From a virus (Duplodnaviria > Caudoviricetes), in the IMG/VR virus record IMGVR_UViG_3300020044_006256, positions 1-62,650 of that record: a stretch of 62,650 nt of DNA. One strand, given 5' to 3'. Numbering within the stretch: the stretch's first letter is position 1; the number at the start of each line of letters is the position of its first letter. The position numbers and the translations under genes were made by a program. The notes beneath the pieces were generated by a model. That model ran no database searches and was not told the DNA's origin. It saw nothing but the letters and a program-made list of their open reading frames with translations. Positions 23,594 to 62,650 of this stretch are shown here, one piece after another.

Positions 23594-23636
23594 CAAATAT
23601 ATAAACATTTTGTTAATAAAAAAACATTTTGCTAAT
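23594..23636 (-). promoter_or_regulatory. Bacteroidota sigma70-type early promoter with tandem repeat operator
   Basis: -7 element TATATTTG at 23594-23601; direct repeat AAACATTTTG(T/C)TAAT at 23603 and 23622. Confidence 0.6.
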
Positions 23637-25038: not shown

Positions 25039-25266
25039 TTATAATATTATAGTTATTTTTTGACTTGCACAACTCATTTTGTGTATTCCATTATCTTGAT
25101 GGCAGTATCTGCATTTTCTATTAGATACAAACATATCGCAGTTGTCTGCATCATCCTCTCTATTAAAGTTGTGAAAGTATTGCCACATTCCATTTTCAGC
25201 AGTAAACCTATAGCAATAAACTTTTGATGGACAATGTATATCTTGACATTTAGCTATATCACTCAT
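25039..25266 (-). CDS. Small Cys-rich protein
   Basis: DIAKC...CPSK..CYRFTA; orthologue of 58098..58424. Confidence 0.65.
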   Translation of the reverse strand: MSDIAKCQDIHCPSKVYCYRFTAENGMWQYFHNFNREDDADNCDMFVSNRKCRYCHQDNGIHKMSCASQKITIIL

Positions 25267-25475: not shown

Positions 25476-25739
25476 AATATATTTAGTTATTAATTAATAC
25501 TACTTTGAAGTTATTAGTTGGTGAGTAAACAGAGGAAGCCTAAGGGAATAACTGCGTTAGCGTTAATCCAGATATTAATATTTTTCATTTAATACCTTTA
25601 TCATCTGTTTGATTCTACTTAGTTAGCTACTAGCAGTTTCGTTTACAGTTGCACCATTAGAAACCCATTTTAGTGCTTTAAGAATAAGTTAAATTGTTGT
25701 ATTTCCCCATAAATACTTATCCCGATTTGTTTAGGTAAC

Positions 25740-25826
25740 AAAAAACCCTATCAAGGGATGCAGACTTGGTAGGGTGTAATTTTGTAATTATTCAACACCT
25801 AAATCAATAGGTGCATCCTAATTGAT
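25740..25826 (-). ncRNA. Candidate structured leader/attenuator RNA with loop-loop complementarity
   Basis: -7 TATCTTTG at 25831-25838; hairpin carrying GGATGCA; terminator whose loop carries TGCATCC. Confidence 0.55.
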
Positions 25827-25878
25827 GAGCCAAAGATAAAAATATAATTTAATAAAAAAAACTTTTAAGTAATTATTT

Positions 25879-28933: not shown

Positions 28934-30333
28934 ATTAATTTGTTATTTGAACGCTACTAATTTGGTAAGACTCGGTTGTTGCTGTTGGTTGAATTGATAC
29001 ATACAAATAGAAATCCGCAGAAGTTGTAATTGCAGTTGATAACCTTGCATTAGCATTTTGTATAAAATCTGAAAACAAAGATGTTGTTGCTACTACACCT
29101 TGTAGTAAAGAACTCTTTATCTCAAAATGTCTTTGTATTGTTGAATAGGGATTAAATGCCGAAGTTGTTGTCGCAGTTGCGATGGTTGTAGCAGTTGCAA
29201 AGTTGTTCGTTGAATTTATTTTTAGTCTAACAGTAAAACCAGTTCCAGCATTAGTTGAAACAGTTTGATAGGCTCTAATCACAACATTCATAAAATCAGT
29301 ACTTGCCAATGTGTTTGCAGAAATAGTATATGTTTTTGCTAATGTTTCAGCAGTAACTCCACTAACTGTTGATGAAGCAACCGCATCTGAAACTATTGAT
29401 TTTATTCTTGCATTTAATTGCGTTTGAATAGAACTTGTAACATTATCCAAATATCCTATTTCAGTTGCAGAAACAGTACCTATTGAAGTTGTACTTGGTA
29501 ATACTACAGTTCCAGTAAATGTTGGACTTGCTAATGGTGCTATTCCTAAAGCACTTGCAGTTTTATTTTTCCAAAGTGATGTTGAGTTTTCATAGGCTAA
29601 TAGATTATTATCGGCTAACCCACTTATTGAAACATCGTGTATTTCGTTTAATTCAAATCCATTTTGAACTTTTACAATAATTTCTCCAACTGTTGCACTT
29701 ACTCTTGACACTACACCGATATATACTAAATGTGCTGGAGCAGTTGGTTTGTTTGCTAATCCAAATAATAAATTACCCGAAGTACCTAACCAAACCGCAT
29801 CGCCAATAGTTGCAGTTGAAGTGTCTAAACCATCTAATAAACCACTTGTAATTACATTTACAATAGCATTAGTTGCTCCTGTTGTTTCGAGTAAACCAAG
29901 TGTTTTGCTACTTGTAGCCTCACTTGTATTTGATGCTTTTGAAACGATTATATTCGTTCCGTTTGCGCTTGAAATATAAACCGCTTGACCTTTAGTAATT
30001 CCTAAAGCTAATTTAACAGTAATCTTATCAACTGCGTTTGTGTTTATGTTTGATATTGCAGTATTTACAGCATCAACAGTTGGAAATTTAACACCAGTTC
30101 CATCAGCAGATAAACTATTTTGTTTGTTACCGCTATTTTCTTTTAATGCAAGTGCATCAAATACTCCATTTGAACTTACTGCATTACTACTTCCATCAGT
30201 TGGGGTTGCATCTATTAAAGGTATATCGTCAGTAGTAGCAAAATAATAACCTCCACTTGGTTTATTTGGCAATTCAAATTGTGGATTTTCGCCATTTTCT
30301 ATAAATGTTGCTAATATAAGAGCTTCACCACCA
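28776..30333. repeat. 1558 bp segment shared by both phage circles
   Basis: Left 164 bp equal 62487-62650 and right 121 bp equal 1-121. Confidence 0.8.
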
Positions 30334-31004
30334 CCCATCAAAGGTGCTTTTAATCTTAGAAAACCACCCTCTGTTTTTACATATCCATTAGTTTCGTCAT
30401 TGTCGTAATAAGTAGATATTATATTTCCTTTTACTTTTATTTCATTTGTAGTTTCATTACCGTTATCAGTAACTTGTTGCAATGTTGCAACGCCACTATT
30501 CACTAACTCCCAAACCGCACTTCCTGTCGTTGCATCCGTACAAAGGTAAATATCGCCATTGTCTAAAATCCATCTCGTATCTACGACAAAGCCTTTTGTA
30601 TCGTCATCTGTAACTGTTGGAGTAACTGCGAAATTGTGCGATACTTCTCTAATGGTTGTACCGCCATCGTTCATTATGTAAAGTCTACCTGCTTCCCACT
30701 TATGCTCGTAGCCAACTGCACAAATTTGCGAGATACCTTTTGCGCCTCCGTTTCCTGCATCGATTGTTCCTTTTTTAAGCATCGAACCGTTATCGAGAAT
30801 TACAGCATCGCCATTGGAAATGGATATGTCTGTTCCATCGGTAATGTTTCCGAGTGCTAGGGTTTCGGCTAGGGTTTGAGAGCCTCCGAACTCTGAAAAC
30901 TTAACAGATTTTGATGTGTTTGTGGAAATATCAACAATCTCTAAAACATCATCCGCTGCGGGTGTTCCTATATCTGTTAAATCGGTAATTTTTTTATTTG
31001 CCAT
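28935..31004 (-). CDS. Tail fibre/receptor-binding protein (B-type N-terminus, shared C-terminus)
   Basis: MANKKITDL anchor; TLQQVTDNGN, DATPTDGSSNAVSSNGVFDAL, APLASPTFTG fibre motifs; Thr/Ser-rich tip. Confidence 0.8.
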   Translation of the reverse strand: MANKKITDLTDIGTPAADDVLEIVDISTNTSKSVKFSEFGGSQTLAETLALGNITDGTDISISNGDAVILDNGSMLKKGTIDAGNGGAKGISQICAVGYEHKWEAGRLYIMNDGGTTIREVSHNFAVTPTVTDDDTKGFVVDTRWILDNGDIYLCTDATTGSAVWELVNSGVATLQQVTDNGNETTNEIKVKGNIISTYYDNDETNGYVKTEGGFLRLKAPLMGGGEALILATFIENGENPQFELPNKPSGGYYFATTDDIPLIDATPTDGSSNAVSSNGVFDALALKENSGNKQNSLSADGTGVKFPTVDAVNTAISNINTNAVDKITVKLALGITKGQAVYISSANGTNIIVSKASNTSEATSSKTLGLLETTGATNAIVNVITSGLLDGLDTSTATIGDAVWLGTSGNLLFGLANKPTAPAHLVYIGVVSRVSATVGEIIVKVQNGFELNEIHDVSISGLADNNLLAYENSTSLWKNKTASALGIAPLASPTFTGTVVLPSTTSIGTVSATEIGYLDNVTSSIQTQLNARIKSIVSDAVASSTVSGVTAETLAKTYTISANTLASTDFMNVVIRAYQTVSTNAGTGFTVRLKINSTNNFATATTIATATTTSAFNPYSTIQRHFEIKSSLLQGVVATTSLFSDFIQNANARLSTAITTSADFYLYVSIQPTATTESYQISSVQITN

Positions 31005-48923: not shown

Positions 48924-49056
48924 ACACAATTTTGTGTATATTTATTTTGTTAATACACAATTCTGTGTATCTTTGTTAAGTCTTACAACAACAACAACAA
49001 CACAAATATAAGAACTTATTTGAATAAGCAATTCTTAAAGTAGTGAATTTAACGAT
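48924..49056. promoter_or_regulatory. Divergent genetic switch region
   Basis: Palindromes ACACAATTTTGTGT (48924) and ACACAATTCTGTGT (48955); plus -7 TATCTTTG (48968); minus -7 TATATTTG (49003-49010); GTAGTGA operator at 49040. Confidence 0.65.
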
Positions 49057-50993: not shown

Positions 50994-51036
50994 GTAGTGA
51001 ATATCACTACTAATTGAAAAACATTTTGTAGATTTG
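50994..51036 (+). promoter_or_regulatory. Replication-operon promoter with 17 bp palindromic operator
   Basis: GTAGTGAATATCACTAC at 50994-51010; -7 TAGATTTG at 51029-51036. Confidence 0.65.
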
Positions 51037-51041
51037 CTTTA

Positions 51042-51141
51042 TAGTAACGAAGTGGAACACGTTACAAATTGAAACGACATTACCAAGTCTTATCAACGAA
51101 GCGTGTTCCACATTACCGCTGAATTGATGAGGCTTTTTTTT
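51042..51141 (+). ncRNA. Candidate structured leader/attenuator RNA with loop-loop complementarity
   Basis: Hairpin GTAACG/CGTTAC carrying GTGGAACACG; terminator AAGTCTTATCAA/TTGATGAGGCTT plus T run carrying CGTGTTCCAC. Confidence 0.6.
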
Positions 51142-51199
51142 AACAACAAATGCAAGGTTTAAGCATTCTAATTTTAAACCATAAATAAATATTTTTAAG

Positions 51200-51883
51200 A
51201 TGGAAACAACATCAAACCGCAGACAGGCATTTGCCACACCGCAAAGCAACCCAGCTACTAAATTCCTAGATTGGAAATCAAATGACAAGTGTTTTGAGTA
51301 TTACGACAAAGCAGAACAAAAGAAAGTACAAGTTGCTTTACCTTTTAAATTTTTAGTCCTGGATGAATTACACACCATTAAAGGATGGAATGACGCAAGT
51401 AGTTCTAGTATCTTCTCTAATGAAGTGAAATACATTTCAAAGGAGGCAATGACTGTCAAACCATTCAAAGGGAATGAGATTGCTAAAGGTCTTTATAAAG
51501 ACATTAAAGACAAGGTTGTTGCTGCTGGAGGTCATTATACTAAAAGCATTTACATAATGCTTGAAAATGGCGAATTAGCCAACCTGCAACTTAAAGGATC
51601 CGCAGTTCAAAAATGGGGTGACTTTACGCAAAAAACTAGAAACCGTTTAGCGGATGAATGGATTACAGTATCCAAAGCATTGGAAGGTAAAAAAGGAGCA
51701 GTTAAATTCTTCACTCCTGAATTTGGTTTTGAAAAATCACTTTCAACCGATGAAGCAATCCAAGCGGATGAATGCTTTAACGTTTTAGAAAGCTATCTAA
51801 AAAGCTATTTAATCAAGGTTGAACAGGTTTTAGTTGAAGAAACAGTCAACGTTTCAGACGATAGTGAAGATTTAGACTTCTAA
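51200..51883 (+). CDS. ssDNA-binding-like replication protein
   Basis: Precedes primase-helicase; acidic DDSEDLDF C-terminus. Confidence 0.55.
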   Translation: METTSNRRQAFATPQSNPATKFLDWKSNDKCFEYYDKAEQKKVQVALPFKFLVLDELHTIKGWNDASSSSIFSNEVKYISKEAMTVKPFKGNEIAKGLYKDIKDKVVAAGGHYTKSIYIMLENGELANLQLKGSAVQKWGDFTQKTRNRLADEWITVSKALEGKKGAVKFFTPEFGFEKSLSTDEAIQADECFNVLESYLKSYLIKVEQVLVEETVNVSDDSEDLDF

Positions 51884-51917: not shown

Positions 51918-52028
51918 AGTCAACATAGCAAACATTTTTTAGAGAAAAGTACCCCCCCCCTTATTTTTTACCTATTGAAAAATCGTGGGGGGTATATAAA
52001 AAAGGAATTAATGTTCACTATGTTGACT
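51918..52028. other. Large inverted repeat, candidate replication origin
   Basis: AGTCAACATAG/CTATGTTGACT arms enclosing TACCCCCC/GGGGGGTA, between SSB-like and primase genes. Confidence 0.5.
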
Positions 52029-62213: not shown

Positions 62214-62644
62214 ATTTGTATCGCATTCGCTTGGATGAATATATCATCAACTTGCGTGTCGGTCAATCCTAAAACGTATTGTAAAAGTTGAACCGTTGCA
62301 CTCCCTCTTTCTATTGTTGTACCGTAATTCCAAACGTACAATGCTCCTGTTTTCATCGGTTCGTCTAATCCGTTCAAAGCGGTTTCGATATTGCTTTCTA
62401 ATCCGCTTAATTTTAGGATAGTTCGCACTCGCCAAAGTTGAACCTCTTGTGGAATTTCTATGCTTTCGGCTATCTCTTGCTCTGTCGCATTTTCGTAAAA
62501 TATTCTAGTTTCAAAGTTGAAATAAGGATTTACAAAATTTTCTGTTAAAAGTTCATCAATAGCCAATTCATTAGATTGTAAATTTTCAACCTCTAAAACC
62601 GCATATAATAATTTACCGCTATTTTTATCAATAATTGTTTTCAT
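62210..62644 (-). CDS. Tail fibre-associated (assembly chaperone-like) protein
   Basis: Orthologue of 28499..28933. Confidence 0.6.
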   Translation of the reverse strand: MKTIIDKNSGKLLYAVLEVENLQSNELAIDELLTENFVNPYFNFETRIFYENATEQEIAESIEIPQEVQLWRVRTILKLSGLESNIETALNGLDEPMKTGALYVWNYGTTIERGSATVQLLQYVLGLTDTQVDDIFIQANAIQI

Positions 62645-62650
62645 ATTAAT
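62487..62650 (+). repeat. Exact repeat of 28776-28939
   Basis: GCATTTTCGTAAAATATTC...TTTTCATATTAAT identical. Confidence 0.95.

What the first reader, a model, noticed from the sequence alone, without database searches (positions are those of the whole stretch)
25740..25838. Leader RNA whose 5' hairpin loop is complementary to its own terminator loop (phage A)
Seen: promoter box TATCTTTG, then ATCAATTAGG-ATGCA-CCTATTGAT, a spacer, then ACCCTACCAAG-TCTGCATCC-CTTGATAGGGT-TTTTT. GGAUGCA in hairpin 1 is complementary to UGCAUCC in the terminator loop. B has the same architecture with unrelated sequence at 51042-51141. Established analogy only: P4 CI RNA and P1 c4 RNA control termination through short complementary boxes. 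Inference: a kissing-loop attenuator in which the short terminated RNA could act in trans as a sequence-specific immunity or copy-control signal.
Basis: partly seen in the sequence, partly recalled or inferred. Interest (0 to 1): 0.8.

Follow-up and report, generated by a model that had tools for sequence, protein, structure and literature searches.

The report
Kissing-loop terminator leader RNAs in phages
Two freshwater Flavobacterium-type phages start an early gene block with a short folded RNA whose 5' end base-pairs with the tip of its own transcription-stop hairpin, and related phages keep that pairing while changing its letters, so it is a real, uncatalogued control RNA of untested function.

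Summary
Element A lies on the minus strand, 25838 to 25740. It has a TATCTTTG promoter box, a 5' domain carrying GGAUGCA (V1), and an intrinsic-terminator hairpin with UGCAUCC (V2) in its loop. Element B (51029-51141, plus strand) has the same plan with a 10-nt pair.

Chance is excluded by relatives, not by the window alone. In 30 distinct homologues of A, 206 of 210 V1:V2 cells are Watson-Crick, spread over 11 different V1 7-mers. B's relatives carry three V pairs.

The same grammar (box, 5' segment, terminator loop) recurs in many unrelated cassettes in the held phage loci. Eight earlier notes of this scan describe it on other DNA. It is absent from Rfam 15 and from the papers I searched.

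Downstream genes have no consensus promoter box of their own. In B these are the replication genes. Read-through must therefore be gated here. Whether the short RNA also acts in trans, as immunity or dose control, is untested.

The parts
25831..25838 (-). Element A: promoter box TATCTTTG (Bacteroidota -7 type, TAnnTTTG)
   Evidence: T-A-n-n-T-T-T-G is invariant in 27 of 27 aligned homologues, although the slices were not chosen on it.
25786..25826 (-). Element A: 5' domain with two alternative folds. One is hairpin 1 (AUCAAU / AUUGAU, V1 in the loop). The other is the more stable long hairpin: AAUUA 25823-25819 with UAAUU 25790-25786, and GCACCUA 25814-25808 with UAGGUGU 25801-25795.
   Evidence: Covariation of the long hairpin was read by eye.
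25812..25818 (-). Element A: V1, GGAUGCA
25745..25775 (-). Element A: terminator hairpin (11-position stem with one C/A mismatch, 9-nt loop)
25756..25762 (-). Element A: V2, UGCAUCC, in the terminator loop
25740..25745 (-). Element A: U6 tract
25494..25741 (-). About 250-nt conserved structured non-coding RNA directly after terminator A. It is the cargo of the cassette, lying ahead of the 70-aa ORF at 25475-25263.
   Evidence: 11 of 42 predicted pairs change on both sides; all 33 nhmmer hits lie directly after the module.
51029..51036 (+). Element B: promoter box TAGATTTG
51044..51065 (+). Element B: 5' hairpin GUAACG / AAGUGGAACA / CGUUAC. V1 GUGGAACACG lies at 51052-51061.
51085..51135 (+). 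Element B: extended terminator hairpin. V2 CGUGUUCCAC lies at 51102-51111 in its apical part.
51134..51141 (+). Element B: U tract
51149..51180 (+). H-type pseudoknot 7 nt after B's U tract and 19 nt before the ATG at 51200. Stem 1 is 51149-51153 with 51163-51167. Stem 2 is 51156-51162 with 51174-51180.
   Evidence: 42 distinct sequences, 98.0% of 504 cells paired, 10 of 12 pairs changed on both sides, 0 of 500 shuffles as high.

Best explanation
A and B are two members of a widespread, uncatalogued class of promoter-proximal leader cassettes of Flavobacterium-type phages.

Transcription starts a few bases after a TAnnTTTG box. The first 10-30 nt of the RNA carry a short segment V1, in a small 5' hairpin loop or bare. 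About 20-60 nt later comes an intrinsic-terminator hairpin whose apical loop carries V2, the exact complement of V1.

The cassette is a cis-acting gate (attenuator) on transcription into whatever lies behind it. In B that is the pseudoknot-led gene, the primase and a helicase. In A it is a 250-nt structured RNA, small ORFs and NinG.

Inferred step 1: the decision is taken by whether V1 captures V2 while the terminator is being made. By analogy with the guanidine-IV riboswitch, capture of the terminator's apical part should hinder completion of the hairpin and favour read-through. A masked V1 should let the terminator fold.

In family A the mask is built in. A co-varying anti-V1 strand pairs with the 5' half of V1, so V1 has two alternative partners.

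Inferred step 2: the letters of V1/V2 are free to change as long as they match. Their diversity keeps cassettes from pairing with each other.

Shown: the RNA pairings. Inferred: the sign of the effect and any trans action.
For: (1) Pairing is real.
- 30 distinct A homologues give 206 of 210 Watson-Crick cells over 7 positions.
- Sliding the register by 1-3 gives 56, 26 and 40 paired cells.
- 1000 permutations of V2 among sequences give mean 133, maximum 158.
- Taking one representative of each of the 11 V1 7-mers gives 77 of 77 cells, against 45.7 +/- 4.3 in permutations.
- Cognate contiguous runs are 9 bp in 9 sequences, 8 bp in 12, 7 bp in 5 and 5 bp in 1, of 27.

(2) B relatives: L002 carries the same 10-mer, L003 carries UGGUGG/CCACCA, and L004-L006 carry UAUCCAC/GUGGAUA.

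(3) It is a class.
- Among 576 unique terminator contexts in the held loci, leader-loop runs of 8 or more number 87, against 18.0 in permuted controls.
- 101 candidate cassettes were found.
- 79 of 87 unique ones have a TAnnTT[TA][GA] box within 45 nt upstream of V1, with the box end a median of 11 nt before V1.

(4) It acts as RNA on the named strand. Orientation relative to box and U tract is fixed, and the stems use G-U pairs.

(5) There is a switch in A.
- The minimum-energy fold pairs on average 4.0 of the 7 V1 nucleotides inside the 5' domain.
- Hairpin 1 costs on average +5.2 kcal/mol.
- L097 changes V1 (GAC), V2 (GUC) and anti-V1 (GUC) together.

(6) Gating is needed. Behind A the next intergenic consensus box on the strand is at 23601. 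Three intragenic matches lie in between, at 25135, 23965 and 23728. Behind B no box follows within the stretch searched, to 52100.

(7) There is a precedent for a kissing loop that hinders a complete terminator stem: PMC11611296 (passages read).
Against: - No expression or termination data exist. No RNA run was listed for this DNA.
- Simple geometry does not force kissing and a complete terminator to exclude each other. Linkers of 17 nt or more are present, and this estimate is my own and not computed.
- The sign could therefore be the opposite, with the kiss helping or locking the terminator.
- In A both folds leave the terminator stem intact in nearest-neighbour folding, which cannot model the kiss.
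- The strong excess of V change over scaffold change suggests selection on specificity that a purely cis device does not obviously need. Example: L272 against L275 have 98.8% identical downstream RNA but 3 of 7 V1 positions differ.
- The class-wide scan used my own crude terminator finder, and related loci are not independent.
Confidence: 0.55

Rival explanations
1. First reader's reading, sharpened. The terminated ~95-nt RNA is itself the regulator. Free copies kiss the nascent leader of the same cassette (mature V2 loop on nascent V1) and shift the terminate/read-through choice. This gives cassette-specific dose control, a timer, or immunity against superinfecting phages with the same letters. 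The known parallels are P4 CI RNA and Gifsy-1 IsrK.
For: - V1/V2 are the fastest-changing part of otherwise conserved units, the signature of a specificity determinant.
- In A the stable fold leaves V2 exposed in the terminator loop. V1 is exposed only in the early, less stable hairpin 1, which would be present on nascent RNA.
- Precedents, both from passages read in PMC4825925: short IsrK, ended at its terminator, acts in trans on the read-through form from the same promoter; P4 CI RNA pairs with seqA and seqC of its own transcript and causes premature termination.
- B sits in front of primase and helicase genes.
Against: - At equilibrium the same molecule can pair V1 with V2 internally, which would close it to trans partners.
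- No third target copy of V1 or V2 was found in up to 13.8 kb around 39 loci; the script stopped before the window itself.
- B's phage already has a protein repressor gene and an integrase gene.
- Cassettes also lie at other positions in related loci, and according to earlier scan notes, which I did not check, before nuclease and antirepressor genes. That is more than an immunity locus needs.
Confidence: 0.28
2. The terminator is constitutive and is overcome by a phage protein antiterminator, as at lambda PR'-6S RNA-tR'. The 5'-to-loop pairing only locks the short RNA, or the 5' end of the message, into a compact nuclease-resistant fold.
For: - Promoter plus immediate terminator in front of gene blocks is the lambda late-operon layout (recalled knowledge).
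- V1 sits a median of 11 nt after the box, at the very 5' end of the RNA, where hairpins protect RNA (the protective role is recalled).
Against: - No antiterminator family was found among the 30 window proteins scanned, but most small ORFs were not scanned.
- A stability lock does not explain the co-varying anti-V1 strand or the rapid turnover of V letters.
Confidence: 0.13
3. V1 and V2 are a DNA-level inverted repeat (a protein operator or recombination site), or they match by chance.
For: V1 and V2 are an inverted repeat in DNA, and the 7-nt match in A alone is not improbable.
Against: - 11 different 7-mers keep the match, so no single protein site is conserved.
- The repeat halves always sit in RNA hairpin loops, in one orientation between a promoter box and a U tract.
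- Surrounding stems tolerate G-U pairs, which are mismatches on the other strand.
Confidence: 0.03

Closest known systems
Guanidine-IV riboswitch (mepA motif)
   Same: It has two hairpins in a leader whose loops kiss, and the second hairpin extends into an intrinsic terminator. The kiss hinders the complete terminator stem and gives read-through (PMC11611296, passages read).
   Different: - There the loops are conserved and the kiss needs guanidine. Here the loops are 7-10 perfect pairs, differ between relatives, and no ligand pocket is evident.
- The context here is phage genes, not transporter genes.
- No Rfam match was found.
Leader-derived phage regulatory RNAs: P4 CI RNA (seqB with seqA/seqC), P1/P7 c4 RNA, Gifsy-1 IsrK
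   Same: - A short RNA made from the leader of a phage operon is complementary to other parts of the same transcript.
- P4 CI causes premature termination ahead of replication genes.
- Short IsrK ends at a terminator and acts on the read-through form (PMC4825925, passages read).
- P1/P7 heteroimmunity through matched changes is recalled, not read.
   Different: - No sequence or Rfam similarity.
- There are only two partners, both inside about 95 nt, and one of them is the terminator loop itself.
- No processing signal is evident.
- Cassettes of this plan lie at several places in related loci.
- Trans action is untested.
Lambda PR' - 6S RNA - tR' unit opened by Q (recalled)
   Same: A promoter is followed within about 100-200 nt by a terminator in front of a gene block, so a short RNA is the default product.
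   Different: - The lambda unit needs no RNA-RNA pairing between the 5' end and the terminator loop.
- No Q-like protein was identified here.
   Same: Complementary loops serve as specificity determinants, and the loop letters co-vary between relatives.
   Different: - Those pair between molecules, or between sense and antisense transcripts.
- Here both loops lie on one sense RNA, next to a promoter, and one is a terminator loop.

Membership tests
Any Rfam 15 family | A covariance-model match at the family's gathering score | tested here: not met
   - 0 matches in the whole window.
- 0 matches in 10 related loci.
- In E-value mode the best hits around A and B are far below gathering: rli38 scores 27.3 against 49, and isrP scores 15.0 against 45.
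Guanidine-IV riboswitch | Conserved loop nucleotides that form the kissing, ligand-binding site | tested here: not met
   The loop letters differ between close relatives: 11 V1 7-mers in 30 sequences.
Guanidine-IV riboswitch | A loop-loop pairing between a 5' hairpin and the hairpin that becomes the terminator | tested here: met
Guanidine-IV riboswitch | A ligand-dependent switch of termination | not testable with these tools
   This needs in-line probing or transcription assays.
P4 CI / P1 c4 / IsrK leader-derived RNAs | Sequence and structure similarity to the C4 or IsrK models | tested here: not met
   Neither the C4 nor the IsrK model appears, even at an E-value limit of 10.
P4 CI / P1 c4 / IsrK leader-derived RNAs | Complementary boxes within one leader transcript that co-vary between heteroimmune relatives | tested here: met
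   V1:V2 co-vary. Heteroimmunity itself was not tested.
P4 CI / P1 c4 / IsrK leader-derived RNAs | The short RNA acts in trans on nascent or read-through transcripts | not testable with these tools
   No RNA data are available. The run search listed no RNA holder.
Lambda-type Q antitermination unit | A Q-family antiterminator gene next to the unit | tested here: inconclusive
   None was found among the 30 proteins scanned. Many small ORFs were not scanned.

The most novel reading that the evidence does not exclude
Each cassette is a self-recognising RNA dosimeter. The terminated leader, with V2 displayed on its terminator loop, kisses V1 on the next nascent leader of the same cassette during the brief time V1 is exposed. 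In this way it sets read-through according to how many copies of that transcription unit are active.

The freely evolvable V1/V2 address would give a phage several orthogonal, protein-free feedback or timer circuits. As a by-product it would give RNA-based heteroimmunity between co-infecting relatives.
Probability: 0.25. Interest if true: 0.9.

Novelty: new variant of a known kind. Interest (0 to 1): 0.72.

Why it matters
If the pairing gates termination, these phages control several of their transcription units with one small, modular, protein-free RNA device. Its specificity sits in 7-10 freely changeable bases.

That would be a new way of organising phage gene timing in Bacteroidota, where regulation is poorly known. 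It would also be a natural set of orthogonal terminator switches of interest for RNA engineering.

It gives a directly testable case of rapid co-evolution of two RNA loops.

Tried and rejected
- **Shared 10-mers.** TACCAAGTCT and AATTGATGAG are exact only at A and B in the window. They are not kept in B's nearest relative L002 or in A's relatives, so I treat them as chance.
- **A against B alignment.** The pairwise alignment shows no homology beyond AT-rich flanks.
- **First pattern scan.** None fitted the full element.
- **Bacterial genomes.** The A pattern gave 37 matches in representative bacterial genomes, and none fitted the element. No prophage copy was found at that stringency.
- **MAFFT alignments.** A2, A4 and A6 put V1/V2 out of register. 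I therefore did not use the count of structure pairs for the kiss, and counted pairs in a script anchored on the conserved flanks. RNAalifold on A2 was uninformative for the same reason.
- **Third V copy.** None was found in 39 loci of up to 13.8 kb. The script stopped on an N before reaching the window.
- **Terminator tool.** The tool's own terminator scan does not list terminator A, because it allows loops of 3-8 nt and this loop is 9 nt.
- **phrog_6706 protein.**
  - Pfam gave only a sub-threshold DUF3417 match.
  - There is no solved relative by sequence.
  - The model has low confidence, pLDDT 53.
  - There is no fold match at E <= 0.001.
  - The idea that it is an SSB rests only on its acidic C-terminal tail ending in F, which is a recalled feature of SSBs.
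- **Literature.** Three searches found no paper describing this element. Supplements were not consulted.

Full report
**What the window is.** The window is an IMG/VR virus record of 62,650 bases with about 33% G+C.
- It holds two related phages in tandem. Long repeats are spaced about 30.2-33.7 kb apart. There are two portal genes, 33% identical.
- I-30212 phage A and 30213-62650 phage B.
- The metallophosphoesterase gene next to element A is 72% identical in DNA to Flavobacterium phage 11b.
- No tRNA gene and no Rfam family are present.

**The observation.**
- Element A reads on the minus strand. In order it has: box TATCTTTG (25838-25831); a 5' domain with V1 GGAUGCA (25818-25812); a terminator hairpin (25775-25745) with V2 UGCAUCC (25762-25756) in its 9-nt loop; and U6 (25745-25740).
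- Element B reads on the plus strand. In order it has: box TAGATTTG (51029-51036); a 6-bp hairpin with a 10-nt loop (51044-51065); V1 GUGGAACACG (51052-51061); a long terminator hairpin (51085-51135) with V2 CGUGUUCCAC (51102-51111); and a U tract (51134-51141).
- In the window only 4 units of box plus terminator-like hairpin exist, among 122 boxes and 48 hairpins. A and B have leader-loop runs of 7 and 10; the other two have 4-5.
- The 7-nt run of A would not be convincing alone. About 9% of permuted terminator contexts reach 7.

**Relatives of A.**
- The neighbouring phosphoesterase protein found 62 loci in IMG/VR. 16 of them carry the element just downstream. L102 was added later.
- A specific DNA pattern found 26 loci, 24 of them true.
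- A pattern from the downstream RNA found two diverged members, L290 and L293.
- In 27 distinct sequences the longest contiguous Watson-Crick run between V1 and its own V2 is 9 bp in 9, 8 bp in 12, 7 bp in 5 and 5 bp in 1. The last is L099/L270, which lacks one base. Among 702 non-cognate combinations, 545 reach 4 or less.
- The register count used 30 distinct sequences, anchored on the conserved flanks and counted from the 5' G of V1 and the 3' C of V2.
  - 206 of 210 cells are Watson-Crick.
  - Sliding the register gives 56, 26 and 40.
  - 1000 permutations give mean 133 and maximum 158.
  - Eleven different V1 7-mers occur. One representative per type gives 77 of 77, against 45.7 +/- 4.3.
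- L293 has a different scaffold and still pairs GGCUGAGA with UCUCAGCC.
- The TAnnTTTG box is invariant in 27 of 27.

**Relatives of B.** The downstream protein (phrog_6706) found 80 loci. Only 5 have a cassette of B's kind directly upstream.
- L002 has the same V pair.
- L003 has UGGUGG with CCACCA, in an apical loop closed by GUG/CAC.
- L004-L006 have UAUCCAC with GUGGAUA.

**A class, not two oddities.**
- A script scanned the held viral loci (about 170, leaving out the chance-hit loci) and the window. It looked for terminator-like hairpins and compared each loop with the 8-110 nt upstream.
- It found runs of 8 or more in 87 of 576 unique contexts, against 18.0 in permuted controls.
- 101 candidates have a run of 7 or more with at least 3 G/C. 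They include many scaffolds unrelated to A or B, for example in L007, L061, L064, L065 and L102.
- Some loci hold two cassettes (L007, L102).
- In 79 of 87 unique cassettes a TAnnTT[TA][GA] box lies within 45 nt upstream of V1. V1 starts a median of 11 nt after the box.
- In one subfamily V1 is the bare 5' end with no hairpin.
- The general rule is therefore "5' end pairs with the terminator's apical loop".
- Eight earlier notes of this scan describe the same class on other genomes. They are leads only. I checked one lead (guanidine-IV) in a paper.

**Fine structure of A.**
- Nearest-neighbour folding of the 30 family members gives a long 5' hairpin as the minimum. It consists of UCAA with UUGA, then the 5' half of V1 with an "anti-V1" strand, then CCUA with UAGG.
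- On average 4.0 of the 7 V1 nucleotides are paired there.
- The anti-V1 strand follows V1, as read by eye. Examples are AAUUGG/CCAAUU, AAUCGG/CCGGUU, UGGCU/AGCCA and AGGC/GCCU. In L097, GAC/GUC changes together with V2 ending in GUC.
- V1 thus has two alternative, co-varying partners.
- The module diverges faster than its surroundings. Among 13 pairs whose downstream RNA is at least 95% identical, scaffold identity averages 84% and V1 identity 73%.

**Context.**
- Behind A comes a 250-nt conserved RNA with co-varying stems. It is always attached to the module in the held loci.
- After that come small ORFs and NinG. The next intergenic consensus box on that strand is at 23601.
- Behind B, 7 nt after the U tract, comes a strongly supported pseudoknot. 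Then follow phrog_6706, a primase (BT4734-like N, PriCT_1, DUF5906) and a helicase.
- On B's strand the only boxes between 48901 and 52100 are at 48968 and 51029.
- Both terminators must therefore be read through for the downstream genes to be made from these promoters.

**Mechanism.**
- I commit to a cis gate. Capture of V2 by V1 during synthesis competes with unperturbed folding of the terminator. The mask on V1 sets the default: the anti-V1 strand in A, the hairpin in B.
- The guanidine-IV riboswitch shows that a kiss onto the upper part of a terminator hairpin can hinder its completion. That gives my preferred sign, kiss = read-through. This is inference, and the opposite sign is not excluded.
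- The fast turnover of V letters suggests that pairing between molecules matters.

**Comparison and novelty.**
- There is no Rfam family.
- Searches of the paper library for kissing/terminator/bacteriophage/Flavobacterium, for guanidine-IV, and for loop-loop/intrinsic terminator/phage/leader RNA/covariation found no description of this element.
- It works like an attenuator with a loop-loop switch. It is not a member of the guanidine-IV or C4/IsrK families.

**Limits.**
- There are no RNA data.
- My terminator finder and flank anchors are home-made.
- Related loci share ancestry.
- The covariation of the anti-V1 stem was read by eye, not scored.
- Supplements of papers were not seen.

Noticed in passing
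window 51149-51180 (+), and L002-L078 just upstream of the phrog_6706 gene: An H-type pseudoknot (5-bp and 7-bp stems) is followed by AUAAAUAAAUA and the start codon. It was found in 64 of 80 related loci, giving 41 distinct sequences there and 42 with the window. 98% of cells are paired, and 10 of 12 pairs changed on both sides. The layout recalls the T4 gene 32 translational operator (PMC535899, abstract seen in the search listing only). The protein's function is unknown.
   Followed up: yes
window 25494-25741 (-): A ~250-nt conserved structured non-coding RNA with co-varying stems and GAAA-type loops. It always sits directly after the kissing module in the held loci and has no Rfam match. 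One segment (ACAGAG) can pair both with an upstream CUGU and with a downstream CUCUGU, and all three change together in L270/L100.
   Followed up: partly
L265, L277, L280/L090, L289 (about 300 nt after the module); L092: In these members a different, also conserved and apparently structured RNA replaces the 250-nt RNA behind the same kissing module. There is no Rfam match in L265, L280, L289, L092 or L277.
   Followed up: no
window 1-62650: The record is two related ~30-34 kb phage genomes joined head to tail. 1-300 matches 30213-30512 at 89%, and 28686-28939 matches 62397-62650 at 92%. It could be tandem prophages or an assembly join of two strains. A 689-aa ORF spans the junction.
   Followed up: partly
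window 51950-51994 (+): An inverted repeat, TA-C9 ... G6-TA, lies between the phrog_6706 gene and the primase gene. Similar G-run motifs (TATAGGGGGGTA) lie at the same place in related loci (seen output). It may be an origin or a primase site.
   Followed up: no
window 50994-51010 (+): The hairpin GUAGUGA-AUA-UCACUAC lies just upstream of B's promoter box. It is kept with changed loop letters in L002 and L003, and is followed by a T run in L003. It is probably the terminator of the preceding small-ORF operon.
   Followed up: no
L007:923, L007:2464, L061:924, L064:2560, L065:674, L102:2355 and others: Further unrelated cassettes have the same grammar (box, 5' hairpin or bare 5' end, terminator loop complementary to it). 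At the site after the phrog_6706 gene about 13 different V sequences occur across loci.
   Followed up: partly
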